NCBI RefSeq assembly: GCF_963921235.1
Contig: NC_086097.1
Coordinates: 108,440,001-108,504,000, forward strand
Reading direction: 5' to 3'
Length of the DNA stretch: 64,000 nt
Source: Mobula hypostoma
Taxonomy: Eukaryota
This document shows, one piece after another, positions 16,771 to 63,600 of the stretch. The notes beneath the pieces were generated by a model. It was not told the origin of the DNA. It made no database searches and worked only from the letters and a program-made list of their open reading frames with translations. Positions within the stretch are counted from its first letter, which is position 1; each line of letters starts with the position of its first letter. A program made the translations under genes and the position numbers.

Positions 16771-18000
16771 TTCAGAAGATGCTCCAAATTATCATTTTAA
16801 ATCTCTCAAGGAATAGGGACTCTAGCAAAAGCACCATTTAATTTTCATCCTTTATCTTGGTAACTAAGAGGGCATTTTTGTGATCGTTACAGTGAAGGAA
16901 TAACAAAATATTTCCATCAGGGAAATGACAATGAAATCCACAGGTTTTCATCTTATTCCTGCTCTTGCCTTTTGATGTGGTGGAACTATTGCGTTTTATA
17001 GAAAGCACACAGTGGTGACGGTGACTTCATTAGAATGTTCAATAATTTGAATGATAATTAATAAAGTGCACAATTTTTCCATGGTAGGATGATACTGTAT
17101 TCAGTTTGATGCATTGTGAAGACGTTGAAGGTTCAGGAGGTGGTGTCTGAGTTCTCTTCTAAGGCAGTCCCTCTGGATTGGGGTTAACTTGCTTATACTT
17201 TAGTTGTGTAGGTTTTCAGATGGCTAATGAGGCCAGTGTGGTAACCTGAGACTCTTCCACAAATGAAATATAGTGAGCAAATGTTTGTCATATGGGTTGG
17301 TTATCAACTAAGAGGGTGTGTTATCCTCTTAGCTAAGTATTTTTGAATTCAAGATTCAAGATTTTTTAATGTCATTTCCAGTACACAAATGTAAAGGAAA
17401 GTGAAATAATTGTTAAGCTGGATCTGATGAAGCACATAAGAGCACACTAAGATAAAGAACACAATAATAAATATAAATACATAAGAGAACTTACATATAT
17501 AGACTGATAATATGTACATAAAGTGACACTAGGCATACGAGTGTCTGTATGCACAGAAGGTGATACTGATAGGAAATTATAAAGTAATGATGGTGGGGTG
17601 AGTTAGTGGGCGGAGTGTCAGTCAGCCTGTTTCTGAAGCTGGTGGTCCTCCCATGGATGCTATGGAAGTGGGACAAACAGTCTGCTCGCAGGGAGAATGG
17701 GATCCTTCATGTTATTGCTGGCAGTTTTATGTATATACAGTATGCCCTTGATTGTGGATAGGCTGGTGCTGGTAATGCGTTAGGAAGTTTTGACTACCCA
17801 TCTGCCTTCCTATCCGCCTCAGTGCGGTTTCTGTACCATGCAGTGTTGCAGCATGTTCGGATTCTCCAGTGTGCATCTGTAGAACGTCGTAATGAAGCAC
17901 AGAGTCCAGCTGTCCTCAACTCCTCAGAAAGTAGAGGCACTGGTAAGCTTTCCCATTTGTGTAGAATGTGTTCTGGGTCCAAGAAAGATTGTGCAAAATA

Positions 18001-18125
18001 CAATCAGTTGGCCCAAAACGTTGACTGTACTTTTTCCACGGATGCTGCCTGGCCTGCTAAGTTCCTCCAGCATTTTGTGTATGTGTTGCTTGGAATTCCG
18101 GCATCTGCAAATTTTCTGTTGTTTG
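18001..18125 (+). mobile_element. Short Penelope terminal-repeat insertion, truncated inside the hammerhead motif
   Basis: ggcccaaaacgttgactgtac..gatgctgcctggcctgct..gcatctgca. 16-bp TSD with one mismatch, aagat(t/a)gtgcaaaata, at 17985-18000 and 18126-18141. Confidence 0.8.
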
Positions 18126-18217
18126 AAGATAGTGCAAAATATGCACTCTCGGGAATTTGAAACTGCTCGCAGTCTCCACTGCTGTGCTACCGAAGTAAAG
18201 AGGGGTGTGAGTTCCCC

Positions 18218-18690
18218 ATAAGACACAGGAGCAGAATTAGGCCATGTGGCCCACTGAGTCTACTCCACTATTCCATCTTGGTTGATTTATTATCCCTCTC
18301 AACCCCATTCTCCTGCCTTCTCCCTGTAACCTTTGACACCTTGACTAATCAAGAAGCTGTCAACCTCTGCTTTAAATATACTCAATGACTTAGCCTCCTC
18401 AGCCTTCTGTGGCAATGAATTCCACATATTCACCACTCTCTGGCGAAAGAAATTCCTTCTCCTCTCTGGTTCTAGACTCACCCACTATAGGAAACTCTCC
18501 ACATCCATTCTATCTAGGCCTTTCAATATTTGATAGGTTTCAATGCGATTCCCCCTCAATCTTCAACATTCAAATGAGTACAGGCCCAGAGCCATCAAAC
18601 GCTCCTCACATGCTAATCTTTTCACTCCCTGGAATCATTCTCATGAACCTCCTCTGGACTCTTTCCAATACCAGCATCTCTTTTTCATAG
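18218..18690 (-). mobile_element. CR1 LINE 3' fragment
   Basis: RRNFFRQRVVNMWNSLP; tail cataagacacaggagcagaa. Confidence 0.85.
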
Positions 18691-27219: not shown

Positions 27220-27890
27220 TAAACTTTTCTCAGACTTCCAGCTGAGTCCAGGTATCAATTTTAACCGCAAACACGAGGAAATCTGCAGATGCTGGAAATT
27301 CAAGCAACACACACCAAATGCTGGTGGAACGCAGAAGGCCAGGCAGCATCTATAGGAAGAGGTACAGTTGACGTTTCGGGGTCTTGGCCCAAAACGTCGA
27401 TGGTACCTCTTCCTATAGATGCTGCCTGGCCTGCTGCGTTCACCAGCATTTTGTGTGTGTTGCATCAATTTTAACCGATGTTTTGATAACAAACTTTGCC
27501 ATCTTCATCAGGGATGATGCCTAGGCCTGTCTGGCCCAGTGGTATTTATACCCCTGTCGTCCATCCCTCCTGATTGGTGAGTCTTCAACCAATCAGGTTT
27601 TCCGCTGTCCCACCTTGTTCAAAATCATATTCCAGTTCTTAGTTAGACTGAGACCTTTGTCCTTCTTGAAATTCTTATTCTCTAGTCTTATTTCAATGGC
27701 TTCCTTCAGCAGGTGGTCTCAAAAATCTTGGCACAACACAGTCATTTTGTGCCTTTGAGGTCAATCCTGTGGTCATACTGTATGCATTGTTCTGCTACTG
27801 TCGATTTCTCGGGTGACCCAAACGGATGCACATCCAATGCTCCTTGATGCGGGTTTCCACAGTGCGCCCCATCTGGCCGATATACAAAAT
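27220..27890 (-). mobile_element. Second Penelope family (Penelope/Poseidon-like): GIY-YIG C-terminal remnant plus terminal repeat with a decayed hammerhead
   Basis: Minus-strand remnants YIGQMGRTVETRIKEH, CIRLGHPEKSTVAEQC, KEAIEI. Motif ccCTGATGAagatggcaaagtttgttatcAAAACATCgg at about 27473-27515. Confidence 0.75.
27268..27463. mobile_element. Fold-back (head-to-head) Penelope terminal-repeat mini-insertion
   Basis: Arms of about 75 bp inverted around a hammerhead stem II. Perfect 14-bp TSD atcaattttaaccg at 27254-27267 and 27464-27477. Confidence 0.92.
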
Positions 27891-28449: not shown

Positions 28450-29085
28450 AAAAGTTCAAAATAAATTTTATTATCAAAGTACGTATATGCCACCATATAC
28501 AACCCAGAGATTCATTTTCCTCTGGGCATAGTCAGCAAGTCGACAGAATAGTAATTATCAAAGTTGCTGGTGAACGCAGCAGACCTCCTCCTAGAGATGC
28601 TGCCTGGCCTGCTGCGTTCACCAGCAACTTTGATGTGTGTTGCTTGAATTTCCAGCATCTGCAGAATTCCTGTTGTTTGTGAGAATAGTAATTATAGCAG
28701 GATCAATGAAAGATCACTCAGAATGCAGAAGACAACTTGCTGTGCAAATGCAAATGGAAGTAACAGCAAAAAATAACGAGAACATGAGATAATGAGATAA
28801 AAATTCCTTAAAGTGAGATCATTAATTGTGGGAACATCTCAATGGATGAGCAAGTGAGTGTAGTTATCCCCTTTGTTCAAGAGCCTGAACCTGAACCTGG
28901 TGTTGCATGTCCTGAGGCTCTTGTACCTTCTACCTGATGGCAGCAGCGAGAAGAGAGCGTGGCCTGGGTGGTGGGGATCTTTGATGATGGATAAATGCAT
29001 TTCACGTAGATGTGCTAAGGTTGGGAGCGCTTCAGCTGTGATGTGCTGGGTGGAATCCACTGCCTTTTGTCGGGTTTGCAGCTCC
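28450..29085 (-). mobile_element. Rex1/Babar-type LINE 3' fragment
   Basis: HPGHALFSLLPSGRRYKSLRT; same tail as the 9375 copy. Confidence 0.8.
28559..28681. mobile_element. Fold-back Penelope terminal-repeat mini-insertion
   Basis: caaagttgctggtgaacgcagcag inverted against ctgctgcgttcaccagcaactttg. Perfect 14-bp TSD agaatagtaattat at 28545-28558 and 28682-28695. Confidence 0.9.
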
Positions 29086-29350
29086 TTTCCAGATGCAGAT
29101 AGGAAATTCCCGAAATATTCTATGATAAACCTTCATGCAATGCTTACAGAGAACGATTATGCTCTTGGTATAATGCTTAAAATCATACCAATCCAATATG
29201 ACCTGTCAATTATTTGGATGAGACAATTGCCCTATTGAGAGAGGTTAAACTGTTTGGATCTGTATCTTTTGGAATTTAAAAGACGAAGGGGTGATCTTAT
29301 TGAAACATTTAGGATCCAAAGTGGGCAAAACAGGGGAGCTGTCTGTGAAG

Positions 29351-31836
29351 CAACACACATAAAAATTGCTGGTGAACGCAGCAGGCCAGGCAGCATCTAT
29401 AGGAAGAGGTACAGTCGACGTTTCAGGCCGAGCCCCTTCGTCAGGACGAACTGAAAGAAGAGATAGTAAGAGATTTGAAAGGGGGAGGGGGAGATCCGAA
29501 ATGATAGGAGAAGACAGGAGGGGGAGGGATGGAGCTAAGAGCTGGAAAGTTGATTGGCAAAAGGGATATGAGAGGATCATGGGACGGGAGGTCTAGGGAG
29601 AAAGAAAGGGGGAGGGGGAAGCCCAGAGGATGGGCAAGGAGTATAATGAGAGGGACAGAGGGAGAAAAAGGAGAGAGAGTGAAAAAATTAATAATAATTA
29701 ATCAATAAATAACGGATGGGGTACAAAGGGGAGGTGGGGCATTAACGGAAGTTAGAGAAGTCAATGTTCATGCCATCAGGTTGGAGGCTACCCAGACGGA
29801 ATATAAGGTGTTGTTCCTCCAACCTGAGTGTGGCTTCATCTTGACAGTAGAGGAGGCCGTGGATAGACATATCAGAATGGGAGTGGGACGTGGAATTAAA
29901 ATGTATGGCCGCTGGGAGATCCTGCTTTCTCTGGTGGACAGAGCGTAGGTGTTCAGCGAAATGGTCTCCGAGCCTGCGTCAGGTCTACCAATATATAGAA
30001 GGCCACATCGGGAGCACCGGACGCAGTATATCACCCCAGCCGACTCACAGGTGAAGTGTCGCCTCACCTGGAAGGACTTTCTGGGGCCCTGAACGGTAGT
30101 GAGGGAGGAAGTGTAAGGGCATGTGTAGCACTTGTTCCGCTTACAAGAATAAGTGCCGGGAGGGAGATCGGTCAGAAGGGATGGGGGGACGAATGGCCAA
30201 GGGAGTCGCGTAGGGAGCAATCCCTGTGGAAAGCAGAAAGGCGGGGGGAGGGAAAGATGTGCTTAGTGGTGGGATCCTGTTGGAGGTGGTGGAAGTTACG
30301 GAGAATTATATGTTGGACCCGGAGGCTAGTGTGGTGGTAGGTGAAGACAAGGGGAACCCTATTCCTGGTGGGGTGGCGGGAGGATGGGGTGAGAGCAGAT
30401 GTGCATGAAATGGGAGAGATGCGTTTGAGAGCAGAGTTGATGGTGGGAGGAAGGGAAGCCCCTTTCTTTAAAAATGGAGGACATCTCCTTCATACTGGAA
30501 TGAAAAGCCTCATCCTGAGAGCAGATGCGGTGGAGACGGAGGAATTGCAAGAAGGGGATGGCATTTTTGCAAGAGACAGAGTGGGAAGAGGAATAGTCCA
30601 GGTAGCTGTGAGAGTCCGTAGGCTTATGGTAGACATCAGTAGATAAGCTGTCTCCAGAGATAGAAAGATCAAGAAAGGGGAGGGAGGTTTCGGAAATGGA
30701 CCAGGTAAACTTGAGGGCAGGGTGAAAGTTGGAGGCAAAGTTAATGAAGTCAACGAGCTCAGCATGCGTGCAGGAAGCAGTGCCAATGCAGTCGTCAATG
30801 TAGCGAAGGAAAAGTGGGGGACAGATACCAGTATAGGCTTGGAACATGGATTGTTCCACAAAGCCAACAAAAAGGCAGGCATAGCTGGGACCCATACGGG
30901 TGCCCATGGCTGCACCTTTAGTTTGGAGGAAGTAGGAGAAGCCAAAGGAGAAATTATTAAGAGTAAGGACAAATTCCGCTAGACGGAGCAGAGTGGTGGT
31001 AGAGGGGAAATGGTTAGGTCTGGAATCCAAAAAGAAGCGGAGAGGTTTGAGACCTTCCTGGTGGGGGATGGAAGTATATAGGGACTGGACATCCATGGTG
31101 AAAATAAAGTGGTGGGGGGCAGGGAACTTAACATCATCAAAAAATTTCAGAGCGTGAGAAATATCACGAACATAGGTAGGAAGGGATTGAACAAGCGGGG
31201 ATAAAACAGTGTTGAAGTATGCAGAAATGAGTTCGGTGGGGCAGGAGCAAGCTGAGACAATGGGTCTACCAGGACAGACAGTCTTGTGAATCTTGGGTTG
31301 GAGGTAGAAACGGGAAGTGTGGGGTGTGGGAACTATAAGGTTGGTAGTAGTGGATGGGAGATCCCCTGATCGGATAAAGTTGGTGATGGTGTGGGAGACA
31401 ATGGCCTGGTGCTCCCTAGTGGGGTCATGATCAAGGGGTAAATAAGAGGAGGTATCCACGAGTTGACGCTGTGCCTTGGCAAGGTAGAGGTCAGTACGCC
31501 AGACTATAACAGCACCCCCCTTATCGGCGGGTTTAATAGTAAGGTTAGGATTAGTGCGGAGGGAGTGCAGAGCAGAGCGTTCGAAAGGAGTGAGGTTGGA
31601 ATGGGAACAAGGTGCGGTGAAGTCGAGACAGTTGATGTCCTTTCGGCAGTTAGCAATAAAGAGATCCAGAGCAGGCAGAAGACCAGAGCGGGGTGTCCAT
31701 GAAGAGGAGGAGGGTTGAAGACAGGAGAAGCGGTCATCAGTGGGGGTGGGAGAGTCCTTGCCGAAGAAGTAGGCTTGAAGATGGAGCCAGCGGAAGAAGA
31801 GTTTAGCGTCATGGCGAACGTGGAACTCGCTGAGGT
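29351..31836 (-). mobile_element. 5'-truncated Neptune-type Penelope-like element (RT, Cys-rich linker, GIY-YIG endonuclease, terminal repeat with hammerhead), inserted in a CR1 tail
   Basis: ORF 30359-31459: PKIHK..PGRPIVS, MDVQSLYTSIP, GAAMGTRMGPSYA, RYIDD. Downstream CKRNKCYTC..FTCES.GVIYCVRCSRCGLLYIG. Several frameshifts. TSD gctgtctgt(g/c)aag at 29338-29350 and 31837-31849. Confidence 0.93.
29414..29447 (-). ncRNA. Minimal type I hammerhead ribozyme motif, intact core
   Basis: GUC-CUGACGA-AGG(GGCUCGG)CCU-GAAAC-GUC^-GAC, with loopless stem III. Confidence 0.75.
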
Positions 31837-31994
31837 GCTGTCTGTCAAGATTTTTTCACTAGAGGGACAATCTTCAATGGGAGGGCATAGTTTCAAGACA
31901 AAGGGATCAAAGCTTGGGTAAGTAAAAATTTGTTCTAGTGTATTTCTAGAATTCTGTGCCCCATAGAGAGTTGGAGGCTAGCTGAAATGAAGTA

Positions 31995-34585: not shown

Positions 34586-36450
34586 CATTGCGCATTATCA
34601 AAATTTAAAGTAAATTTATTGTCAAAATATATTGTGTCAACAGTACAACCCTGAGATTAATCTTCTTGTGGGCATACTCAAATCCATAATAGAATAATAA
34701 CCATAATAGAATCCATGATAGACCTCACCAGCTTGGGCGTTCAACCAGTGTAGAAAAGACACAAACTGTGCAACTGCAAAAAGAAAGAAATGATAAGCTA
34801 ATAAATACCACAAACATGAGATGAAGTGTACTTGAAAGTGAGTCTATAGGCCCATGGGAACGTTTCAATTATGGAGTGAAATTGAGTGAAGTTATCCCCT
34901 TTGGTTGAGGGGTAATAACTGTTCCTGAACCTGGTGGTTGTGAGTCCTGAAGCTGCTGTACCTTCCGCCTGATGGCAGCTGCGAGAAGAGAGCATGTCCC
35001 TGGTGATGGATGCTGTTTTCCTGCGACAGCATTTCATGTAGATGTGCTTGATGGTGGAGAGGGCTTTACCCAAGATGGACTGGGCCGTGCCCCCCACTAC
35101 TTTTTGTACCTTTTCTGTTCAAGAGTATTGGTGTTTCCATACCAGGCTGTGATGCAGCCAGTCGGTATACATCACACATCGAAGTTTGTCAGAGTTTTAG
35201 ATGTCACGCCGAATCTTCACTAACCCCTAAGGAAGTAAAGGTGCTGCCATATTTTGTTCATAATTGCACTTATGTGTTGGGCAGATACAGATGTATTCCT
35301 TCGAAAGAATAACACTGAACAATTTAAAGTTGCTGACCCTCTCCACCTCTGATCCTCTGATGAGGATTGGCTCATGGCCTCTGGTTTCCCTGAAGTAAAT
35401 AGTCAGCTCCTTGGTCTTGCTGACATTGAGTAAGGTGTTGTTGTTATGGCACCATTTAGCCAGATCTTCAGTCTCCCTCCTATATACTGATTCATTACCA
35501 TCTTTGATTCGGCCTACGATAGTGGTGTCATCAGCAAAATTAAATGTGGCATTGGAGCTGTGCTTACCCTCACAGTCATTAGTTTAAACCAGCGGTCCCC
35601 AACCACCGGGCCGCAAAGCATGCGCTACCAGGCCACGAGGAAGCTATGTGATTTGGCGATATGAGTCAGCTGCACCTTTCCTCATTCCCTGTCACGCCCT
35701 GTTGAGCTTGAACGCATGCGAGGTCATTACTCGTGCGTCATCCGTTTCAGCGTGGGAAGGAGATCAACTCCTCGAGCTTGCAAATGATGGCGGGCTGGAA
35801 AGTATGTTTTACATAACATCTCTGCCGGCATTCTGGATCAAAGTCAAGGCTAAAAATCCTGAGATAGCCATGAAAGCACTGAAAACGTTGTTTCTATTTC
35901 CAACATATCTCTGCAATGAATGCAACGAAAACTAAACTGTGGAATAGGCTGTACATAAGGAACCCCGTTCGAGTATCGCTGTCTCCCATCACCCTTCGGT
36001 AGAACCGTGTTGTTGCATGAAAACAAGCCCAGGGCTCCCAATGATTCAGCGATATTGGTGTGTTGCAATGATTTTATACGTTCATACAGGAAAAACGTGC
36101 TACGTGTTTAATATCCAAACGTTACTTAAAATGTTATGATGCTATTGACTTATATAACCATATTGTGGCGACCCACTTTCTGGCACACACGAACCGGCTC
36201 ACAACAGCGCGCGCAGGCAGAGGGCCGGCCCCAAAAAGGGCGCCAGGCCATCTTCACCAGCAGGGGGAAAATCCCGCGCGCAGAAAGGGTCTGGGAATAT
36301 GCATTCCCCACAGTAGTCCCGCCCAGGGAGGGCGGGAACGGGAAGGCTTTAAAGCGGGCCGCGAAGTTTGAATAAATCTCTTTCATCGCAACTCTAACTC
36401 ACCGACTCCGTGTGGTTATTCTAGCGCTGTGTGTAGCACATTGCTACAAT

Positions 36451-36464
36451 TGGTGACCCCGACG
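36451..36464 (+). promoter_or_regulatory. Primer-binding site for tRNA-Trp
   Basis: TGGTGACCCCGACG, 2 nt after the 5' LTR; complementary to the tRNA-Trp 3' end. Confidence 0.88.
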
Positions 36465-36488
36465 GCCCAAACGATATTTGGACCAGAG

Positions 36489-37193
36489 ATGACCGACGCT
36501 GCATCTGTTCACGCAGTTTCGTTAAAACTGCCAAGCTTCTGGACACTGCGACCCCATTTATGGTTTGAACAAGCAGAAGCACAATTCCACATTCGGCAGA
36601 TAACCTCGGAGTCCACTCGCTACTACTACGTGCTGAGCTCACTCGACCAGGAGACTGCTGCACAAGTTGAGGAGTTTATACAGTCGCCCCCGGAGGACGG
36701 CAAATACACAGCATTCAAAGCCCTGCTCATAAGGACTTTCGGACTCTCACGGCACGAACGAGCACGCCGCTTAATGCACCTGGATGGTTTGGGAGACAGG
36801 CCGCCGTCAGCATTAATGAACGAGATGCTGGCCCTGGCTGAAGGACACAAACCCTGCCTCATGTTTGAGCAGGCGTTCCTAGAGCAACTGCCCGAGGACG
36901 TATGCCTGCTGCTGTCCGACGCAGATTTCAGCAACCTCCGGGAGGTGGCGGCCCGAGCAGATGTGCTGTGGAATGCCAGGAAAGAGAGAGGGGCATCCGT
37001 CGCACAGATCACCAAGCTGCGTGCCCAACAACAGACCAGACCAGGCCCGGCAGCAGAGCCTACAAAACCCGGTGATGGGAGTGAGGAGCCCAACGAACAA
37101 TAGTGTTTCTACCACCAGCGGTGGGGCACAGAGGCCCGCCGCTGCAGACCGCCCTGCAAATTCCCAGGAAACGCCAGGGCCAGCCGCCGCTGA
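36489..37193 (+). pseudogene. gag: gag with a premature TAG (37101-37103) just before the CHCC motif
   Basis: VSLKLPSFW..WFEQAEAQF. Reading through the TAG gives CFYHQRWGTEARRCRPPC (C-x2-H-x9-C-x3-C), then KFPGNARASRR*. Confidence 0.88.
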
Positions 37194-40100: not shown

Positions 40101-40400
40101 ACGGTGGACCGACTCAAACCGGCCCATGTGGACTTGGCGCAACCGGTCCAGGCTCAGGCACCGCGGCGCAGGGGCAGACCTCCCAAACAGACGCCGATCC
40201 AGACTGTGGACATTGGGGGAGGTATCGCCGGTTCTGGGGGGGTGTTATGTGGCGACCCACTTTCTGGCACACACGAACCGGCTCACAACAGCGCGCGCAG
40301 GCAGAGGGCCGGCCCCAAAAAGGGCGCCAGGCCATCTTCACCAGCAGGGGGAAAATCCCGTGCGCAGAAAGGGTCTGGGAATATGCATTCCCCACAGTAG
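37166..40400 (+). pseudogene. pol: pol (protease, RT, RNase H, integrase) in the -1 frame from gag; one frameshift near 37375
   Basis: [67 protein letters not shown]. Open for 1015 codons from 37353. Confidence 0.93.
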
Positions 40401-47226: not shown

Positions 47227-47391
47227 GTAAAATAGATATATAATTGAAAAGTTACAGCTTTATAATTAGATACTGTCTATTTAACTTTCCATTTTTGGCT
47301 CTCTGTCTTCATTCTAATTAGTGAAAGTTTGTATTTGTATATTATATCTGTCAGGATTATTCGTTAGTCAATTGAATTTACTTGTTTTCAG

Positions 47392-47544: not shown

Positions 47545-49294
47545 GTAACTATGAACTTTTAACTTCTTTATATTACGCCTTTTCACACTGTCTAAGTCAA
47601 ATAAACTGTGCGTACCAGGTATAATTTTCTTCAGTGTTATTACTGGTGGATTTGGAGGAGAAAAGTGTGACTCCTGACTCTTCCTTCTGTCTGCTCCATT
47701 AATGCTGATTAATATGTAAATATGCGTGAGTACAATTTAGACAAGGCCTAATTGTAATGGAATAACACTGTTGACCATCCTTGCCGTTAAGCAGCTAACA
47801 GTTGGCCCAGCACCTTTTGTCTGGCCTGTGTATTCAGAGATTGCTCGGTTTAGCTGCTCGTTGTTGTATCAGCAGTTAGACGCAATCGATCACTGCCTGC
47901 GTCAGAGAGGCATCGGAGGATTGAGTGGGTGAAGGTGGTATGCAGTCTAACAGTGAGTGATCATCTTAGTTGCTTTGCTTGTGATTGCAAGACTCTGTTG
48001 GATATTGTTGGTGTGAGTCTAATTCCTTGGTTTATTGGGGATGGAGGAACTGCGTGGTATCAGTCGTAGTGAGGACTACGCCTTGAGCTGTGGTGTCGCC
48101 TGTCTGCATCCACCCGGGGAAGGCATCGGAGCCAGGCACTCCATCGAATTGCGGTGTTCAAGTGGGAGCTGGTGCTGCCCTAGTGTTTGCTTAGCAGAAA
48201 TCAAGCTGTATTGTGTTCAACTGCAGACTGCTGCAACATTCATGGACTCAGGGATTTGGACTATATTTTTGTGTGACTGTATTTTACTGCCATCTTGTAT
48301 GCACTATATGTGTCTTGTGCTGTGTGTGACTGTTGGTTCTTTGTTTTGCTCCTTAGCCCCGTAGTAAAGCTATTTGGTTTGGCTGTATTCATGAGTATTC
48401 AGGTATAGTTGAATGACCAGTAAACTTGAACTTGATTCATCTAACTTCCGACTGAAAGGGTGTTGTGTGGAACATAAAGTGCTGGCAGTCACCTGAATTT
48501 ATCCCATCACAGATCCTTTCCAATTCCTCAGAAACTTGAGTCAATCAACATGTAGGTAGACTTCTAAGAAAATTAAAGTCTCTTGAGAGTTCAGCATGAG
48601 CCTTAAGAGCAGCAGAGCCAAAATGCTATTGTAACTTCATCTAGTCAGATATGACATACAGTCAACTGAATAAGGACTTGAAACCACAGTAATTCTCCTT
48701 CCCACAGAACATTTATTCCACTTATGTACATCTATATACACTCGGGGTAGATATGGAGAGCTATTACTGTTTGCAGCAGCTATTACTGGTGGGGTTATAC
48801 ACAACACTAACATCCATACTGAGTTTTACATCAGTGATCAACTTTTGGGGCCTTGTATATTTGTTGGCATTTGCGAACAGTAACCAGCATTTCCACTCCC
48901 CTCACTGGTAAATCCTGTCAGGCTGATTGAGTACAATGTTTGTGCACTGATTATATGAGCAGACATTAGACCCCAAAACACTGGCTAACAATCCAGAGAC
49001 ATGAGATCAGCTACCAATTTATCAGGCCTGGAATTTGAACTTAGTTAATAATCTAGGAAAAGTCATATTGGGATCATTTTTCTTATAAAAACCTTTAATT
49101 ATTAAATAATTAATTAACCTTTCCTCATTGGCATTTAAATGGTTTGACATGGACTAGATGACTCAAAAGGCCTGTTTCTCTCTGTACTTTTCTATGACTC
49201 TATAATCTGTATCCTTATTGATTCACAACATAATGAGCTAAAAAATTCTTATATACTACATTAATTAATCATTGGTAATATTATTGCTGGTCTG

Positions 49295-51209
49295 CAAACA
49301 CAAGGAAATCTGCAGATGCTGGAAATTCAAACAACACACAAAATGCTGGTGGAGCGCAACAGGCCAGGCAGCATTTATAGCAAGAAGTACAGTTGACGTT
49401 CCGGGCCGAGACCCTTCGTCAGGAATAACTAAAAGAAGAGATAGTAAGAGATTTGAAAGTGGGAGGGGGAGGGGGAGATCCGAAATGATAGGAGAAGACA
49501 GGAGGGGGAGAGATAAAGCTAAAAGCTGGAAAGTTGATTGGCAAAAGGGATACAGAGCTGGAGAAGGGAGAGGATCATGGGATGGGAGGCCGAGGGAGAA
49601 AGAAAGGGGGAGGAGAGCACCAGAGGAAGATGGAGAGCAGGCGAGTTATTGTGAGAGGGACAGAGAGGAAAAAAAAAGGGGAAAAATAATAAACAAACAA
49701 ATAAATAAACAAACAAACAAATAAATAAATAAGGGATGGGGTAAGAAGGGGAGGAGGGGCATTAACGGAAGTTAGAGAAATCAATGTTCATGCCATCAGG
49801 TTGGAGGTTACCCGAACGGAATAAGGTCCACACGCAAAATGCTGGTGGAACGCAACAGGCCAGGCAGCATCTATAGGAAGAAGTACAGTCGACGTTTTGG
49901 GCCGAGACCCTTTGTCAGGGCTAACTGAAAGGAGAGATAGTAAGGGATTTGAAAGTGGGAGGGGGAGGGTGAGATCCAAAATGATAGGAGAAGACAGGAG
50001 GGGGAGGGATAAAGCCAAGAGCTGGAAAGTTGATTGGCAAAAGGGATACAGAGCTGGAGAAGGGGGAGGATCATGGGACGGGAGGCCTAGGGAGAAAGAA
50101 AGGGGGAGAGGAGCACCAGAGGAAGATAGAGAGCAGGCAAGGAGTTATTGTGAGAGAGACAGAGAGAGAAAAAAGAGAGAAAAAGAAGAAAAAAAAGGAA
50201 GGGAGTAATAAATAAATAACCAAATAAATCAATCAATCAATAAGGGATGGGGTGAGAACGGGAGGAGGGGATTAACGGAAGTTAGAGAAATCAATGTTCA
50301 TGCCATCAGGTTGGAGGCTACCCAGACGGAATATAAAGTGTTGTTCCTCCAACCTGAGTGTGGCTTCATCTTGACAGTAGAGGAGGCTGTGGATAGACAT
50401 ATCAGAATGGGAATGGGATGTGGAATTAAAATATGTGGCCACTGGGAGATCCTGCTTTCTCTGGTGGACAGAGCGTAGGTGTTCAGCGAAATGGTCTCCC
50501 AGTCTGTGTCCGGTCTCACCAATATATAGAAGGCCACACTAGGAGCACCGGACGCAGTATATCACATCAGCTGACTCACTGGTGAAGTATCACCTCACCT
50601 GGAAGGACTGTCTGGGGCCCTGGATGGTGGTGAGGGAGGAATGTAAGGGCAGGTATAGCATTCCCATTCTGATATGTCAATCCATGGTCTCCTCTACTGT
50701 CAAGATGAAGCCACACTCAGGTTGGAGGAACAACACCTCATATTCCGTCTGGGTAGCCTCCAATCTAATGGCATGAACATTGATATCTCTGGCTTCCGTT
50801 AATGCCCCTCCTCCCCTTCTTACCCCATTCCTTATTTATTTATTATTTCCCCCCCTTTTTCTCTTTTTTTCTCTCCCTGTCCCTCTCACAATAACTCCTT
50901 GCCTGCTCTCCATCTTCCTCTGGTGCTCCCCTCCCCCTTTCTTTCTCCCCAGGCCTCCCATCCTATGATGCTCTCCCTTCTCCAACTCTGTATCCCTTTT
51001 GCCAATCAACTTTCCAACTCTTAGCTTCATCTGTCCCCCTCCTGTCTTCTCCTATCATTTCGGATCTCCCCCTTCCCCTCCCACTTTCAAATCTCTTACT
51101 AACTCTTCTTTCAGTTAGTCCTGACAAAGGGTCTCGGCCCGAAATGTCGACTGTACCTCTTCCTATAGATGCTACCTGGCCTGCTGCATTCCACCTGCAT
51201 TTTGTGTGG
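49295..51209. mobile_element. Complex Neptune-type Penelope insertion: two tandem minus-strand 3' ends plus one inverted plus-strand 3' end
   Basis: Units at about 49295-49825(-), 49828-50658(-), 50659-51209(+). Three decayed hammerhead motifs. Perfect 14-bp TSD ttattgctggtctg at 49281-49294 and 51210-51223. Confidence 0.92.
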
Positions 51210-51581
51210 TTATTGCTGGTCTGGTTTGCCCAATCAATACATACACTTAAATTTCCCTGTGTGGAAAAATGGGGCCATCTGGTTTGGTAGATAAAAATAG
51301 TACTTCTCTTAATAAAAACCAAAAATGCTAGAAAGACTCAGCACGTCAGACATCAATTTATAAATAGTGAGAGGCTGAAATTTGTCAGTGTTCACAGGAA
51401 TCCACTGAAATTTAATATGTAGACGCAGCAAGAAATTATGAAGGCAAATGATGTGTAGGCCTTAATTGGACAGTGGGCATCAGTACTAGTGTGAAGTTAT
51501 CTTACTGTAATTATTTGAGGCCCAGGAAAAACTAACCTGAAACTTTGTGTTTCAGTCTACACATATATAAGGAAGGATATA

Positions 51582-52902: not shown

Positions 52903-53037
52903 TATGCACAAAGGAAGATCTGCAGATGCTGGAAGTCCAAGCAGCACACACGAAATTCTGGAGGAACTCAGCAGACCAGGCAGCATCTATGGAAAAGAGT
53001 ACAGTTGACGTTTCAGGCCGAGACCCTTCCTCAGACC
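52903..53037 (-). mobile_element. Short Penelope terminal-repeat fragment ending at the hammerhead
   Basis: tctgcagatgctgg..cagttgacgtttcaggccgagacccttcctcag; no clear TSD. Confidence 0.75.
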
Positions 53038-53171
53038 TGCTGAAATAGAAACAGTTGAGTCCCTTCATTATGGTCATGGTTCATAAGTTATCTCAGTTCC
53101 ACCTTGCTATACTAACCCCATAACCCTGGATTCCTTGGATAACCAAAAGTTTAGTAAAGCTGTTTTAACTA

Positions 53172-54198
53172 TATACCGAGTGGCCACTTTATTAGGTACC
53201 TCCTGTACCTGATTAAAGTGGCCACTGAGTGAACATTTGTGGTCTTCTGCTGCTGTAGCCCATCCACCTCAAGGTTTGATTTGTTGTGCAGTCAGAGCTG
53301 TGCTTCTGCACACCGCTGTTGTAATGTGTTCTCTTGCCTTTCTGGTTTTGAGTTCTATCCTCTCCTATCAGCTTGAAAAGAAATAAAAATAATAAATAAG
53401 CAATAAATATCGAGAACATGAAATGAAGAGTCCTTGAAAGTGATTCTGTAGATTTTAGGAACAGTTCAGTGGTGGACCAAGTGGACTTGAGTGAAGTTAT
53501 CCCCACTGGTTCAAGAGCTTGATGACTGAGGGATAATAACTGTTCCTGAATTTGGTGGTGAGAGTCCTGAAACCCCTGTACCACCTTCCTGATGGCAGCA
53601 GAGAAAAGAGAGCATGCTGCTTTCCTGTGACAGCACTCCATATAGATGTGCTCAGTGACGGGGAGGGCTTTGCACATGATCGGCTGGGCCATATCCACTG
53701 CTTTTTATGAGACTTTCCATTCAAGGGCATTGGCATTTCCATACCAGGCTGTGGTGCAACCAGTCTGTAAACTGTAAACTCCACTGTACATGTTTTAGAT
53801 GCCATGCCAAATCTTTGCAAATTTCTAAGGATATAGAGGCGCTGTCATGCTTTCTTTGTAATTGCACTTATATGCTGGGCCCAGCACAGGTCCACCAAAA
53901 TGATAACAACAAGGAATTTAAAGTTGCTGATCCTCTCCACGTCTGAGGACATAGCTCATGGACCTCTGCTTTCCTCCTCCTGAAGTCAGCTCCTTGGTCT
54001 TGCTGACATTAAGTGAGAGGTCATGGTTATGGCACCACTCAGCCAGATTTTCAATCTCCCTCCAATATGCAGGTTCATCACCACCTTTGATTCAGCCAAC
54101 GACAGTGCTGATGGAGATTGTGGAGGATTATGCACTGAGTTGCTACTACATGATTGGCTGATTAGATATTTGCATTAATGAACAGTTGTACTGAGTGT
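53172..54198. mobile_element. Tc1-like non-autonomous element interrupted by a Rex1/Babar fragment (about 53378-54110, minus)
   Basis: gagtggccactttattaggtac end motif. Internal similarity to 55701-55761 and 58570-58768. LLPSGRWYRGFRTLTTKFRNSYYPS. Confidence 0.7.
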
Positions 54199-55463
54199 TC
54201 ATATTATGGATAGAGAATGCAAAGATAACTTCTGTTTGGCTGGAAAAAAATATTTTATCTCTGACCTCATGGCTGAGCCCTCATTATTTTAACTGGGTTA
54301 ATAAGGCTTTACTAGGTGTTGGTAGATAAGTTATTTGTACAGATTTCGTCCTCTTCCCGCCTTCCCCAAGTATATCAGTCCTTTGGTGAGGCCCTCTCTG
54401 ATCTATTCAGTGGCCCAAATGGAGGTCTTGATCTTAGCTATTTTGAGGTTTGAATCTTCAGTATTTCCATCTACTGCCAATCTTTTCACCCTGCCCGACA
54501 TAGCTACTTATTAGACCCCGTCACTGATACTTCCAGGCAACTCCCACCCCATCTAAAATTGATCCACACTGCATCCTGCATTCATAGACCTTTCTTTATA
54601 TCTCCAGCCTACACCTGTACCAGCCCCACGTGGTACAGATATGCAATGTGCAGCTGAGAATTCAGTGCAATGAAAATGTGTAATAGAGGAGGAAAAAGTA
54701 ATACGGTAACTTCCCTCTTACTGGAGTACACTGGAAATTGTAGGTAGTTCTACTCCCAACTCCCGTTTGCCAGTTGAAGTTTATTTATTTAATTTATTTA
54801 GAGGTCTGGTGAGGAACAGCTCCTTCCAGCCCAATCAACCACTCCGCCAAGCCACCCTCAATTTAACCCTCGCCTAATCACGGGATAATTTACAAGGACC
54901 AACTAATCTGCTAACCAGTACGCCTTTGGACTGTAGGAGAAAACTGGAGCACACGAAGGAAGCCCATAGGGAGAACATACCAACTCCTTACAGATGGCGC
55001 CGGAACTGATCTCAGAACTCCGGATTGCCAAGAGCTGCAATAACATTGCACTAACCATTATTCTACCGTGCAGTTGGCCTCACTATCTTCTCTGTAGCCC
55101 AATTTTAGTACTCATTTTGCAAAATGGAAACGTCTCTAGCCCTTTAATTTATGACATTTAGTTCCTTAAAATAGAAACAAGAGGGTGATTTTGAAAGCAT
55201 TTCTGCCATTACTAAAACCTGTTCATGTATTGCCATAACTCTGCTTCTTTAGACATTGCATTTGCAGATTTTGTGTTTAAGGCCTTTGAGTATAATGTTT
55301 TATTCTTTGCTAGCCTGGTCATTCAGGAGAAAATTGAATTCCTTATGCTTTCCCAGTAATTCAGTTGGATGCACCAAGATGTGATTCACAAATGCTCACA
55401 TATATTTAATCTGGCATTTCAGTTTGTTCTAATTTTGTGCAGAAGAAGAACAGAAAAACTGTT

Positions 55464-55669
55464 AACACAAAATAATCTGCAGATGCTGGGGTCAAAGCAG
55501 CACTCACAACACGCTGGAGGAACTCAGCAGGTCGGGCAGCATCCATGGAAAAGATCGGTTGACGTTTCAGCCAGAACCATTCGTCCTGACGAAGGGTTCC
55601 GGCCCGAAACGTTGACCGATCTTTTCCACGGATGCTGCCCGACCTGCTGAGTTCCTCCAGCGTGTTGTG
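55464..55669. mobile_element. Fold-back Penelope terminal-repeat mini-insertion (distinct subfamily)
   Basis: Inverted arms of about 70 bp. 14-bp TSD with one mismatch, acag(a/g)aaaactgtt, at 55450-55463 and 55670-55683. Confidence 0.9.
55583..55616 (+). ncRNA. Minimal hammerhead ribozyme motif, intact core, on the OXR1 sense strand
   Basis: GUC-CUGACGA-AGGG(UUCCGG)CCC-GAAAC-GUU^-GAC. Confidence 0.72.
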
Positions 55670-55949
55670 ACAGGAAAACTGTTGATTTATACTTTCAGGA
55701 TACACATTCTGGCCGCTGAGCCGATGTTCATGGGCTTTCGCTGCTGTAGTCCACCTACTTCATAGAAACCATAGAAACCATAGAAAAACTACAACACAGA
55801 AACAGGCCTTTTGGCCCTTCTTGGCTGTGCCGAACCATTTTTTGCCTGGTCCCACTGACCTGCACACGGACCATATCCTTCCATACACCTCCCATCCATG
55901 TATCTGTCCAATTTATTCTTAAATGTTAAAAAAGAACCTGCATTTACCA

Positions 55950-56071
55950 ACACACATCAAAGTTGCTGGTGAACGCAGCAGGCCAGGCAGCATCTCTAGG
56001 AAGAGGTACAGTCGACGTTTCAGGCCGAGACCCTTCGTCAGGAAGGCGACCTAATTATTTAACATCTCTCA
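55950..56071 (-). mobile_element. Short Penelope terminal-repeat insertion with intact hammerhead core plus about 27 nt of foreign filler
   Basis: 12-bp TSD ctgcatttacca at 55938-55949 and 56072-56083; core at 56011-56044. Confidence 0.88.
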
Positions 56072-57596
56072 CTGCATTTACCACCTTGTCTGGCAGCTCA
56101 TTCCACATTCCCACCACTCTCTGTGTGAAGAAGCCCTCCCTAATGTTCCCTTTAAACTTTTCCCCCTTCACCATTAACCCATGTCCTCTGGTTTTCTTCT
56201 CCCCTTGCCTCAGTGGAAAAAGCCTGCTTGCATTCACTCTATCTATACCCATCATAATTTTATATACCTCTATCAAATCTCCCCTCATTCTTCTACGCTC
56301 CAGGGAATAAAGTCCTAACCTATTCAACCTTTCTCTGTAACTGAGTTTCTCAAGTCCTGGCAACATCCTTGTAAACCTTCTCTGCCCTCTTTCAACCTTA
56401 TTTATATCCTTCCTATAATTTGGTGACCAAAACTGAACACAATACTCCAGATTCGGCCTCACCAATGCCTTATACAACCTCCTCATAACATTCCAGCTCT
56501 TATACTCAATACTTTGATTAATAAAGGCCAATGTACCAAAAGCTCTCTTTACGACCCTATCTACCTGTGACGCCACTTTTAGGGAATTTTGTATCTGTAT
56601 TCCCAGATCCCTCTGTTCTACTGCACTCCTCAGTGCCTTACCATTAACCCTGTATGTTCTACATTGGTTTGTCCTTCCAACGTGCAATACCTCACACTTG
56701 TCTGTATTAAACTCCATCTTCCATTTTTCAGCCCATTTTTCCAGCTGGTCCAAATCCCTCTGCAAGCTTTGAAAACCTTCCTCACTGTCCACTACACCTC
56801 CAATCTTTGTATCATCAGCAAATTTGCTGATCCAATTTACCACATTATCATCCAGATCATTGATATAGATGACAAATAACAATGGACCCAGCACTGATCC
56901 CTGTAGCACACCACTAGTCACAGGCCTCCACTCTGAGAAGCAATCCTCTACTACCACTCTTTGGCTTCTTCCATTGAGCCGATGTCTAATCCAATTTACC
57001 ACCTCTCCATGTATACCTAGCGACTGAATTTTCCTAACTAACCTCCCATGCGGGACCTTGTCAAAGGCCTTACTGAAGTCCATGTAGACAACATCCACTG
57101 CCTTCCCTTCATCCACTTTCCAGGTATCCTCCTCGAAAAACTCCAATGGATTGGTCGAACATGACCTACCACGCACAAAACCATGTTGACTCTTCCCTAA
57201 TAAGTCCCTGACTATCCAAATGCTTGTAGATTCTGTCTCTTAGTACTCCCTCCAATAACTTACCCACTACCGACATCAAAGTTACAGGCCTATAATTTCC
57301 CGGATTACTTTTCGATCCTTTTTTGAACAACGGAACAACATGAGCCATTCTCTAATCCTCCGGCAACTCACCTGTAGACACCGACATTTTAAGTATATCT
57401 GCAAGGGCCCTGCAATTTCAACACTAGTCTCCTTCAAGGTCCGAGGGAATACCCTGTCAGGTCCTGGGGATTTATCCACTTTAATTTGCCTCAAGATAGC
57501 AAGCACCTCCTCCTTTTCAATCCGTACAGTTTCCATGATCTCACTACCTGTTTCCTTTAATTCCACAGACTTCATGCCAGTTTCCTTAGTAAATAC

Positions 57597-59822: not shown

Positions 59823-59902
59823 AAAGGGTTCCCAACCTTTTTTATGCCATGGACTAAAACTATTAAGCAAGGGGTCTATGGACCCCAGGTTGGGACCCCC
59901 TA
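59823..59902. mobile_element. 80-bp Charlie-like hAT mini-MITE
   Basis: gggttcccaacc / ggttgggacccc; TSD actaagag/acttagag. Confidence 0.75.
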
Positions 59903-60139
59903 ACTTAGAGGTTCATAAGTTACTGATCAACAATGGCATTTGCAGTGTGTGTGGGGGTACGGGGGCGGAATACCTTTGTGGTTATGGGTATAGGTCTTAA
60001 ATTGACTTGCCTGAAGCCTAAACTGAAATTTTAGTTTGGATATGGTATTTCAGTGGTATTTTTAAGATGACTGATTTTATTTGATTCAACCAGAATATCC
60101 CTCTCTTAATTTTTAGGTCTGGGCCAAGCATATCATATT

Positions 60140-60640
60140 TTAGAGTCATTATGTCGTAGAAAAGTACAACAAAGAAACAGACCCTCCTGTCCGTTTAGCC
60201 CTTTTAATCTGCCTAGTCCCATCGACCATAGCCCTCTATACCCCCTGCTATCCAAGTATCTATCCAAACTTTTCTTAAACATTGAAATCGAGCTCACATG
60301 CACCAATTGGGCTGCCAGCTCGTTCCACACTGTCATGACCTACTGAGTGAAGAAGTTTCTCTTCATGTTCCCCTTAAATTTTTCACCTTTCACCCTTAAC
60401 TCATGACCTCTAATTGTAGTCCTATCCAACCTCAATTTACTGTCTCCTCATAATTTTGTATACCTCTATCAAATCTCCCCTCAATCTTCTCTGTTCCATG
60501 GAATAAAGTCCCAACCTATTCACTCTTTCCCTATAACTCAGGTCATCCAGACCTGGCAACATCCTTGTAAAATTTCTCTGAATTCTTTCAACCTTATTTA
60601 CATCTTTCCTGTCGGTAGGTGACCAAAACTGCACACCTTG
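60140..60640 (-). mobile_element. CR1 LINE 3' fragment
   Basis: VQFWSP..ERIQRNFTRMLPGL..RRLRGDLIEVYKI. Confidence 0.88.
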
Positions 60641-61969
60641 TTTTGAGCAGAGATCTGATTTTGCAGGTTCCACTGTTAATCTAATTGTGTGCCTTACATT
60701 CCCTTTTATCAATCACAACCTGGGAAATGAATGCTGGTTAGGTGATCAAGTGGCAGACAGAAAGGCCTTCTAATTTCTGACTTATCTGGGGACCCATCTG
60801 AGATTACCACCTTGTTTTGTGTCTAAATCTTGTTCATTTATCTGCTTAAGCCTCCACCCCACCTCACCACACCACAGTACCAATGCAGACAAATATATTT
60901 GCTTAAAGGTTTTGTTTTGCTTTAGGCTATTAGAAATATTCTTTTCTCCGTGCATGACAGAATTTTAGACATTGTCTCTGAGATAATGTAGCTTGACAAC
61001 AACTTCTGCGACTCTAATGCAGTTACTGTCATGCAAGATGACCTTATTCTGCAGATGTTGCTCCTTTTCTGCAAATAAGGGAGATGTATTCCCAGATGCC
61101 TTCCCTTTCTTCACAAATGCATTCAATTCTCTTATTCAGGTCCTCCCCCTAATTTGCTCTATGGTCAGCTTTGAACTAGGCAGCACATTCTTTGAATGCA
61201 GAAGCGTGCAATAGCGTGTCTCTTGGAGTTGCACACTGATGTGATTACAAATTACCTTGGTATCCCAACTTGAATGTAACTGGAAGTTGCGCACACAGAT
61301 CTTTAATTTTCAGCCTCTATGCCTCCTTAGCAAGTGTTTTTTTTAATGTCCTGGATTTCTAGAAAGATGCATTTGTATATTTGAACCATACACTTTAAAC
61401 TGACCATTATGGGAGATAGTAAGATCATATTAGTTAATCTGTCTATAATAGTTATGGTTTTCCCCCTTTTAATTTCAAAAATTATTAGCAGAATACTGAG
61501 TCACAGATTATAGAGCAGACAATAGGCACTGTCGGTCAAATGTACCTGTGACAGTTTTTTGGAAGCTGTATACGTATTGATATTGCACATTCTTTCTTTA
61601 TAGCAAGGTAAGTGTTTCCAGCTCACTTTTATTCATCAACTCCTTTCTGGTATATTCTATATAAACTTTTCTGATATATTTAAAATCATAATACCTGCTT
61701 CATGGAAAGAAATTCTTCTGGTCTTGCCTCTGCTTTTTCAACTGATTGTCAACAGTCCTTGAAGTGAAAACACCTTCTCCATATTTACTCTTAATTTTTG
61801 CATGATTGTGAACACGAACAAAAGAAGAGATCAGTAGGTCATTGACCCCCTTGACTAATCTGTCATTCAATCTCATGGCTGCACCTCTACCTCTGGACCA
61901 TTGTCCTATTGGTTTCTCATTTCCCTTGGTTCCTCTCCTAAAGTAGAACTTGATGATCTCAGACTGAGG

Positions 61970-63600
61970 TAGAGTCATGGAGGGTACGGAGTTATACAGT
62001 GTGGAAGCAGCCTCTTTAGTCCACCTTGTCCATGTTAACTGAAGTGCTTATCTGAGCTACTCCTGTTTTTGCTTGTGTTTTCCTCGCCCGCACCCACAGC
62101 GATCACTCCCTCTGCGATTCCCTTGTCCATTCGTCCCTCCCCACTAATCTCCCTCCCTGTACTTATCTCTGCAGGAGGTCTAACTGCTACACCTGCCCAT
62201 TCACCTCCTCCCTCTCTTCCATTCAGGGCCCAGGGCCCCAATCAGTCTTTCCAGGAGAAGTAACACCTCGCCAGTGAATCTGCTGAGGTTGTCTACCGTG
62301 TCCCGTGCTTCCGATGTGGCCAGTGAGACCCATCATAAATTAGGGAACCGCTTTGTTGAACACCTCTGCACCATCTGCGGTAAACGGGACTTCCCGGAGA
62401 TCAAACATTTTAATTCCAATTCCCATTCCTGTTCCGATGTGTTCATCTATGGCCCCCTCTTGTCCCAAGATGAGGCCACCCTCAGAGTGGTGGAGCAGCA
62501 CTTTATATTCTGTCTGGGTAGCCTTCAACCTGATGGCATGAACATCGATTTCTTCTGGTAAACAAATTCTACCCCGCTCCTCTATTCCCCACTCTGATCT
62601 GTCAGTTCTCATCTGCCTATTATTTCCCCCTGTGTTCCTTCCTCCTTCCCTTTCTCCTATGGTCCACTTTCCTCTCCTATCAGATTCCTTCTTGTCCAGC
62701 CCTTCACCTTTCTCACCACCTGGCTTCACCGAGCACCTGCCAGCTAGTCTCCTTCCCCTCTCCCCACTTTTTTATTCTGGCATCAACCCCCTTCCTTCTC
62801 AGTCCTGATGAAGGGTCTGGGCCCAAAATGTGTCTATTCATTTCCATAGGTGCTGCCTGACCTGCTGAGTTCCTCCAGCATTTTGTATGTTTTGCTTTGG
62901 ATTTCCAGCATCTGCAGACATACTGGTGTTTCTGATTAGCTAGTCCTGTTTGCCTACATTTGGTCCGTATCCCTCAAAACCCTTCCTATGGATATACCAG
63001 TCCAAATGTGTTTTAAAGTTTGTAATTGTACCAGCCTCTGCCACTTCCTCTGGAAGCTAGTTCCATACAACACCTTTCTGTGTGTGAAAAATCTGCCCCA
63101 CAAGTCCCCTTTAAATTCTTACTCCTGTCACATTAAACCTATACCCCTGGTTTTAGACTCCCCGGCCTTGAGGAAAAGGCTGTGACCTTCCACCTGATAT
63201 ATACCCCTCTTGATTTTATAACCCTCTATCAGGTCGCACGCCCCCCCCCCCCCCGGCAGCTTCCTTGACTCCAGAGAAAACAGTTCCAGTCTATTCAGTT
63301 TTTCTTTATAACTCAAGCCCTGGTGCCAGCAACATCCTTATGAATCTCTTCTGGACCCTCTCTAGCTTTATCACGTCCTTCCTACAGTTTGGTGACCACA
63401 ACGTCATGCAGTACTTAAAGTGTGGTCTCACTAATGTCTTAACGCAGTTGTAATATGCAATATGACAATTCAACCCTTGTATTCAATGCTCCAAGCAATG
63501 AAGGCAGGTACATCATACGCCGTATCACCTTGTCTATCTGTGTTGCCACTTTCAGGGAACTATGTACTTGCACCCCAAGGTGACTTTGTTCCACAGAGCC
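61970..63600 (-). mobile_element. CR1 LINE 3' fragment interrupted by a Penelope element
   Basis: SYKEKLNRLELFSLE..DLIEGYKI; the tail continues across the insertion. Confidence 0.8.
62069..62937 (+). mobile_element. Older Neptune-type Penelope 3' fragment (GIY-YIG plus terminal repeat, decayed hammerhead near 62801)
   Basis: KLGNRFVEHL..HFNS..EQHFIFCLGSLQPDGMNIDF. TSD agcta(c/g)tcctgttt at 62055-62068 and 62938-62951. Confidence 0.85.

What the first reader, a model, noticed from the sequence alone, without database searches (positions are those of the whole stretch)
17985..62951. Hammerhead-bearing Penelope terminal repeats spread as tiny insertions with a narrow 12-16 bp TSD range
Seen: eight insertions of one Penelope family group have TSDs of 16 (18001), 14 (27268), 14 (28559), 13 (29351), 14 (49295), 14 (55464), 12 (55950) and 14 bp (62069). 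Five are only about 120-210 bp of terminal repeat. Known: Penelope elements encode RT plus GIY-YIG, carry minimal hammerheads, and make inverted and tandem ends. Inference: a roughly 14-nt staggered cut and routine production of non-coding ribozyme-repeat mini-elements, either abortive products or a retrozyme-like parasite of the autonomous element.
Basis: partly seen in the sequence, partly recalled or inferred. Interest (0 to 1): 0.75.

Follow-up and report, generated by a model that had tools for sequence, protein, structure and literature searches.

The report
Penelope stubs record two-strand priming
These tiny insertions are one-off stubs of a very abundant Penelope-type jumping gene, not a separate ribozyme parasite, and their roughly 14-base target duplications and paired ends likely record both cut DNA strands starting to copy the element's RNA at two fixed points.

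Summary
All eight TSDs are real, at the stated lengths. The element is a Neptune-type Penelope-like element (PLE). In 1.464 Mb of unselected genome there are 230 insertions. TSDs of two-armed copies peak at 14 bp, and 87 of 109 are 12-16 bp (decoys 4 of 858), so the stagger is supported, though L1 has a similar peak. The retrozyme idea fails. Junctions are distinct in 19 of 19 unselected minis, recurrent ones appear in mirror form and in different subfamilies, arm ends avoid the cleavage site, and three of the five minis lack the full ribozyme core. Best reading: a symmetric cut of about 14 nt, with both strands priming, often on a short RNA end. The layout is in print; I did not find this mechanism in print. 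This scan has noted the same family and similar readings many times, in this genome and others.

The parts
17985..18141 (+). One-armed 125-bp stub of an older subfamily (insert 18001-18125), ending at site A, cut inside the hammerhead; 16-bp TSD
27254..27477 (.). 196-bp hairpin insert: site-A arm 27268-27380 plus inverted site-B arm to 27463, joined in hammerhead stem II; 14-bp TSD
28545..28695 (+). 123-bp insert: site-A arm 28583-28681 plus a 24-nt inverted arm 28559-28582; 14-bp TSD
29338..31849 (-). 2486-bp 5'-truncated copy starting at site B, with frameshifted RT (30359-31855) and CX4CxxC linker plus GIY-YIG (29768-30262); full hammerhead core near 29413-29450; 13-bp TSD
49281..51223 (.). 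1915-bp insert: site-A arm (530 nt), tandem site-B arm 49830-50660, inverted site-B arm 50659-51209; 14-bp TSD
55450..55683 (.). 206-bp hairpin of a second subfamily: site-A arm plus inverted site-B arm joined at the hammerhead 5' edge; 14-bp TSD
55938..56083 (-). 122-bp insert: site-B arm stopping at position 133 plus 28 nt of unassigned filler, inside a CR1-type LINE; 12-bp TSD, empty site aligns without gap to other LINE copies
62055..62951 (+). 869-bp 5'-truncated copy of a third, older subfamily ending at site A; 14-bp TSD
52908..53034 (-).
1162..1251 (+). Further decayed site-B stub, no clear TSD, outside the finding's range

Best explanation
The insertions are independent, 5'-truncated copies of a Neptune-type Penelope-like retrotransposon, and they likely arise when the element's endonuclease nicks both target strands about 14 bases apart and each freed 3' end primes reverse transcription at one of two internal RNA sites. 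Shown here: TSD mode 14; two start sites, A and B, about 37 nt apart and internal to the element; one A end and one B end in nearly all two-armed copies; a mirror-image target bias beyond both nicks; a pile-up of arm ends at positions 130-135, the hammerhead's 5' edge; unique junctions. Inferred: a two-fold symmetric (dimeric) complex leaving 3' overhangs of about 14 nt; both arms usually copied from one RNA or one source; run-off at an RNA 5' end near 133-137 when priming occurs on the upstream repeat, giving the 120-250-bp stubs; joining of the two same-sense cDNAs through short complementary patches, many of them in the hammerhead's helices. The ribozyme acts here as a landmark and source of microhomology, not as the cutter that sets the ends.
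For: TSDs: 36 of 60 unselected and 73 of 84 searched two-armed copies pass score 9, against 4 of 858 decoys; 20 of 21 young unselected A+B copies pass. Rebuilt empty sites align without a net gap to other repeat copies in 31 of the 36 of 132 sites that had a spanning homologue. L136 shows the repeat running on past site A into the ORF, matching the two internal RT starts and two-strand cleavage and extension of Anolis PAc (PMC11167929). A+B pairing in 43 of 47, p=1.4e-9. T enriched at +3, +7 and +8 beyond both nicks, n=80, profile r=0.83, permutation p=0.0015, control -0.01. Microhomology with the target exceeds a simulated null at both ends (1.15 and 1.39 vs 0.60). The B arm reaches further than the A arm in 17 of 26 copies, sometimes by 400-1000 nt, which fold-back of the A cDNA cannot give. 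17 of 98 arms end at 130-135, hazard 0.40 per 10 nt against 0.033 or less beyond 142; 3 of 98 end at 100-105, around the cleavage site. Arms agree at subfamily sites 340 of 387 times (0.88) against 0.55 across elements; short pairs with short and long with long (14, 2, 2, 8; p=0.001).
Against: All of it is genomic inference; no cut or cDNA was observed. Correlated arm lengths also fit fold-back with later trimming of the hairpin tip. B longer than A is not significant (17 vs 8, p=0.11). The nick symmetry is not significant in the 25 unselected copies alone (r=0.55, p=0.068) or in one-armed copies (r=0.54, p=0.26). Arm agreement could reflect subfamilies active at different times, and some copies have discordant arms (L189) or one arm past 135 with the other stopping at 133-134, which points to two templates. 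The cap test was inconclusive. Four of 47 copies are A+A or B+B, and 13 more two-armed copies had an end I could not class. PMC11167929 saw no difference in start site between strands and no homology at initiation in vitro. 21 of 37 young one-armed copies have no callable TSD.
Confidence: 0.68

Rival explanations
1. Fold-back or self-priming: one target strand primes, the cDNA (or an antisense template, as proposed in PMC3846280) folds back to give the inverted arm, and the hairpin tip is trimmed later. The TSD comes from an L1-like second nick.
For: Arm lengths are correlated (rho 0.64); arms share subfamily variants and a few private ones; junctions use short self-complementary patches.
Against: It does not explain why the second arm stops at site B, which is also the end of 69 one-armed copies and matches an in vitro RT start in PAc (PMC11167929). 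The B arm exceeds the A arm in 17 of 26 copies, for example 180 vs 616 and 779 vs 1852. The second nick has the same target bias as the first.
Confidence: 0.15
2. Twin priming as in the best explanation, but on two separate RNAs, and with the pile-up at 130-135 caused by RT stalling at a paired (dimeric) hammerhead helix I instead of an RNA 5' end.
For: Some discordant arms, and pairs such as (144,134), (149,133) and (157,133). The stop coincides with the 5' strand of helix I. No clear cap-derived base.
Against: Two freely drawn RNAs predict A+A and B+B in about half of cases; 4 of 47 were seen. Short-long mixed pairs are rare, 4 of 26. A monomeric hammerhead would already be unwound when RT reaches position 133 (inference).
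Confidence: 0.14
3. The minis are a retrozyme-like or MITE-like non-autonomous family that amplifies as a unit using the PLE protein.
For: Some junctions recur: (111,123), (126,133) and (133,126), four times each among 43 searched loci, and (97,134) twice. Short copies outnumber long ones.
Against: 19 of 19 unselected junctions are distinct. Recurrent ones come in mirror pairs with different starts and subfamily variants; only two pairs among 43 searched loci share junction and B start, and these differ at the A end or in variants. No head-to-tail arrays of a short monomer were seen, ends miss the cleavage site, and three of five window minis lack the full core. Searches with two window minis found no other locus covering the whole query (only 8 and 40 candidates scored).
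Confidence: 0.03

Closest known systems
Endonuclease-positive PLEs of the Neptune/Nematis type (PMC8557442)
   Same: RT then C-terminal GIY-YIG, CX2-5CxxC linker motif, terminal repeat with hammerhead, adjacent inverted 5'-truncated copy, 30-40-bp tail often at one end only.
   Different: The paper describes the layout qualitatively; the passages I read give no TSD length, no A+B pairing count and no stop site. Neptune versus Nematis was not resolved by a tree here.
Anolis Poseidon PAc in vitro (PMC11167929)
   Same: Two internal RT start sites bounding the tail; both strands cut and extended; predicted dimer; ribozyme cleavage not needed for insertion.
   Different: A different clade. No TSD or nick spacing is reported in the text I read. 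It reports no strand difference in start site and no homology at initiation, whereas here ends pair A+B and show mild microhomology.
Adineta vaga Pen2a/Pen2/Pen3a (PMC3846280) and D. virilis Penelope (PMC2377424)
   Same: Inverted pLTR, optional 31-37-bp tail, TSD.
   Different: Adineta TSDs quoted are 8, 9 and 10 bp, against a mode of 14 here. The authors favoured self-priming on an antisense template.
L1 twin priming (PMC2912911)
   Same: Both target ends prime on one RNA; TSD peak 14-16 bp; inverted copies keep long TSDs while 5'-truncated copies more often have short ones.
   Different: In L1 the second primer anneals at variable internal places and, from recall, the inverted piece lies upstream of the first. 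Here the second start is fixed at site B and both arms copy the same stretch. The endonuclease is GIY-YIG, not APE.
Metazoan non-LTR retrozymes (PMC7229834)
   Same: Small, non-coding, type I hammerhead, possible reliance on PLE protein.
   Different: Retrozymes are head-to-tail arrays of 150-450-bp monomers with canonical hammerheads, expressed as circles. These are head-to-head or single stubs with minimal, often incomplete hammerheads, collinear with the autonomous element.

Membership tests
EN+ PLE, Neptune/Nematis type | Single ORF with RT followed by C-terminal GIY-YIG | tested here: met
   Pfam RVT_1 and GIY-YIG in that order on L139 and L143, both below gathering cut-offs; window copy RT
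EN+ PLE, Neptune/Nematis type | CX2-5CxxC motif in the RT-EN linker and CCHH-type EN | tested here: met
   CX4CxxC linker, then CxxC within GIY-YIG and two conserved His, in the window copy and L132-L150; definition from PMC8557442
EN+ PLE, Neptune/Nematis type | Terminal repeat also present upstream of the ORF (pLTR), with optional 30-40-bp tail and inverted copies | tested here: met
   L136; starts cluster at about 1 and about 37
EN+ PLE, Neptune/Nematis type | Minimal type I hammerhead with palindromic helix III in the repeat | tested here: met
   Core motifs with a 4-nt palindrome and complementary helix I strands (PMC4209133). No Rfam hammerhead hit; cleavage not tested
EN+ PLE, Neptune/Nematis type | Placement in the Neptune clade on an RT tree | not tested
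   No tree with named references was built
Metazoan non-LTR retrozyme | Head-to-tail tandem monomers of 150-450 bp | tested here: not met
   Short copies are single or head-to-head
Metazoan non-LTR retrozyme | Canonical hammerhead in each unit, units set by the cleavage site | tested here: not met
   3 of 5 minis lack the full core; 3 of 98 arm ends near the cleavage site against 17 at 130-135
Metazoan non-LTR retrozyme | Amplification of a fixed unit at independent loci | tested here: not met
   19 of 19 distinct junctions; recurrent ones mirror-imaged and in different subfamilies
Metazoan non-LTR retrozyme | Abundant linear and circular monomer RNAs | not testable with these tools
   No run on record as RNA; contigs only

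The most novel reading that the evidence does not exclude
PLE integration is carried out by a two-fold symmetric RT-endonuclease dimer that reads a T-biased pattern outside each nick, leaves a 14-nt 3' overhang, and copies one RNA twice from two start sites 37 nt apart. When it loads on the upstream repeat it runs off the RNA's 5' end at the hammerhead edge, a strong-stop-like product. This one scheme would explain the tail, the inverted pLTR, the TSD and the hundreds of thousands of stubs, and would differ from both L1 twin priming and the published self-priming model.
Probability: 0.4. Interest if true: 0.7.

Novelty: new member of a known kind. Interest (0 to 1): 0.42.

Why it matters
How PLEs cut the second strand and build their inverted repeats and one-sided tails is open; PMC11167929 says the later steps are yet to be validated. 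This genome holds about 157 such insertions per Mb (roughly half a million if the sample is typical), many young. They give numbers that the existing in vitro assay can test directly: nick spacing 13-15 nt, A+B pairing, T at +3, +7 and +8 beyond each nick, and run-off at 133-137. For annotation, the stubs should be filed as truncated PLE copies, not as a MITE, retrozyme or microRNA family (Rfam gives only weak hairpin matches).

Tried and rejected
Rfam scan: no hammerhead family hit, only sub-threshold microRNA hairpins. Single-strand folding of four repeat copies: no more stable than shuffles, z 0.4-1.2. RNA: no RNA holder listed; the four runs laid were contigs and show no starts or ends. 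Cap-derived extra base after position 135: 4 of 7 in the searched copies of one subfamily, 0 of 1 in its unselected copies and 2 of 7 in the other subfamily, confounded by the partner arm; inconclusive. Two short-query genome searches meant to sample arm ends without bias returned nothing. My first microhomology null (0.46-0.51) ignored chance extension of the repeat into the element and was replaced by a simulation. Library hits without a terminal repeat (60 of 239, many of them unrelated repeats) were left out of all counts. No dimer prediction, homologue search or tree was run. Retrozyme or MITE family rejected (see rivals). Ribozyme cleavage as the source of the ends rejected.
Full report
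Observation. A direct-repeat search around each stated start recovers all eight TSDs at the lengths given: 16, 14, 14, 13, 14, 14, 12 and 14, four of them with one mismatch. The five short inserts measure 125, 196, 123, 206 and 122 bp. BLAST within the window shows two more ends of the family, at 52908-53034 and 1162-1251, without a clear TSD. The copies fall into at least three subfamilies that share only the terminal 135 or so bases well. The window lies in a 3.48-Gb genome.

What the element is. The long copy at 29351-31836 encodes an RT, then a CX4CxxC motif and a GIY-YIG domain. Intact relatives L139 and L143 give RVT_1 and GIY-YIG in that order, both below Pfam's cut-offs. The linker motif marks the Neptune and Nematis clades (PMC8557442, passages and section 10 read); I built no tree. 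In L136 the terminal repeat lies upstream of the ORF and runs on into it, so the element's apparent 3' ends are internal sites. I number the repeat antisense from its outer end. Arms start at about 1 (site A) or about 37 (site B). This is the known 30-40-bp tail, which PMC11167929 (parts 1-2 of 4 read) traced to two RT start sites in Anolis PAc. The hammerhead is the minimal type of PMC4209133 (parts 1-2 of 4 read): by my reading of the motif, cleavage falls between positions 103 and 104 and the 5' strand of helix I at 132-135.

Sample. I fetched seven 200-kb runs chosen without regard to the element, which with the window make 1.464 Mb, and found 230 insertions with a terminal repeat, covering 86,288 bp; 153 span 250 bp or less. 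The spans of old subfamilies may be short because my library lacks their bodies. A further set of loci came from searches with window copies. These are selected for internal sequence, so I use them for TSDs and target bias but keep them apart for junction and length counts.

TSD length. Among two-armed copies, 36 of 60 unselected and 73 of 84 searched have a repeat scoring 9 or more, against 4 of 858 swapped-flank decoys. The lengths of these 109 are 9:3, 10:10, 11:2, 12:8, 13:23, 14:31, 15:18, 16:7, 17:3, 18:2, 19:1, 26:1. The threshold hides TSDs under 9, but 20 of 21 young unselected A+B copies pass it. Some 9-11 calls are clipped by a mutation or followed by a few filler bases. One-armed copies are looser: 30 of 169 unselected pass (decoys 21 of 1181), 16 of 37 among young ones. 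Of 132 rebuilt empty sites, 36 had a spanning homologous repeat, and 31 of those align without a net gap, so these are true duplications. Microhomology between target and element averages 1.15 nt at A (n=40) and 1.39 at B (n=36) against 0.60 simulated, which blurs each length by about a base. A mode of 14 is longer than the 8-10 bp quoted for Adineta PLEs (PMC3846280, passages), but it matches L1, where the peak is 14-16 and truncated copies more often have short TSDs (PMC2912911, passages). The stagger is therefore real but not startling alone.

Are the minis a family? No. In 19 of 19 unselected hairpin minis the junction is distinct. Among 43 searched loci there are 32 distinct junctions. 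The recurrent ones occur as mirror pairs, (111,123)/(123,111), (126,133)/(133,126) and (97,134)/(134,97), with different B starts and subfamily variants (sequences). A unit that amplified would keep its junction's orientation and ends; sequence-driven joining would not. Retrozymes are head-to-tail monomer arrays with canonical ribozymes (PMC7229834, passages); no such arrays were seen. Three of five window minis lack the full core. Of 98 unselected young arms, 3 end at 100-105 and 17 at 130-135; the hazard there is 0.40 per 10 nt against 0.033 or less beyond 142.

Mechanism. Among two-armed copies with both ends classed, 43 of 47 are A+B, 2 A+A and 2 B+B; 13 more had an unclassed end. Each arm is antisense on the strand that leaves the TSD, so each target 3' end can have primed its own arm (geometry read from the sequence). 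The B arm reaches further than the A arm in 17 of 26 copies, A further in 8, one tie. Fold-back of the A cDNA cannot give a longer B arm, and fold-back of the B cDNA cannot give the tail, unless the tip was trimmed later. Beyond each nick, outside the TSD, T is enriched at +3 (43 of 80 at both nicks), +7 (47 and 40) and +8 (43 and 33) over a 29% background. The two profiles correlate at 0.83 (p=0.0015; control -0.01). The correlation is weaker in the 25 unselected copies alone (0.55, p=0.068). This points to one enzyme making both nicks with two-fold symmetry, in line with the two-strand cleavage and predicted dimer of PAc. Arms of one insertion agree at variable sites 340 of 387 times against 0.55 between insertions (one of the six sites is CpG-linked and four lie in a repetitive tract), and short arms pair with short arms (p=0.001). 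That favours one RNA or one source but does not prove it: L189 has arms of two subfamilies, and a few copies pair an arm past 135 with one stopping at 133-134. The stop at 130-135 is most simply an RNA 5' end on the upstream repeat, since Penelope's start site lies in the terminal repeat region (PMC8557442 section 10; PMC2377424, passages). My test for a cap-derived base was inconclusive and no RNA reads were available, so stalling at the ribozyme stays open.

Novelty. The element type, the inverted arm, the one-sided tail and the hammerhead are in print. I found no paper giving a 14-bp TSD, an A+B rule, symmetric nick bias or twin priming for PLEs. The library lacks most subscription journals and Repbase reports, and I read no supplements, where TSD lengths may be listed. 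PMC8969392 (passages) restates the layout only. I recorded the twin-priming reading before consulting earlier notes. Those notes show that this scan has reached similar readings at many other loci in this genome and in others; they are not independent evidence. The cap test and the reading of PMC2377424 were prompted by them. Verdict: a real and well-supported observation on a new member of a known kind; the parasite reading is refuted, and the remaining value is a quantitative, testable picture of PLE integration.

Noticed in passing
L036:363-799 (58 kb right of window 55950): A PLE insertion holds 167 bp that are 98.2% identical to window 55868-56034 (LINE flank, TSD and B arm), placed between an A arm and a resumed arm, with a small inversion at the hammerhead. 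It may be a template jump onto a nearby locus during integration.
   Followed up: partly
window 36164-40534: Young Ty3/Gypsy LTR element: 287-bp LTRs 98.6% alike, a DUF7041 frame at 36372-37103 and a 1018-aa RT/RNase H/integrase frame at 37344-40400.
   Followed up: partly
window 56044-56071: 28 nt of unassigned filler between the PLE arm and the right TSD; similar fillers of 5-12 nt occur in other one-armed copies.
   Followed up: no
window 28559-28582 and the C2 run (L256-L275, position 181954): Inverted second arms of only 23-24 nt are missed by profile search, so the share of two-armed insertions is underestimated.
   Followed up: partly
L182, L184, L185, L186, L188, L189 and window 28583: A sequence variant at positions 91-99 goes with junctions at (97,134) and its mirror, as if it creates a joining patch for the 134 end; the loci were selected with a query carrying this variant.
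   Followed up: partly
window 56055-57239 and 2694-3194: LINE RT remnants (CR1-type and L1/Tx1-like; the labels are recalled, Pfam gives RVT_1 only). The first is the target of the 55950 stub.
   Followed up: no
window 53169-53236: A short inverted-repeat hairpin unrelated to the PLE, a weak Rfam microRNA match; possibly a MITE.
   Followed up: no
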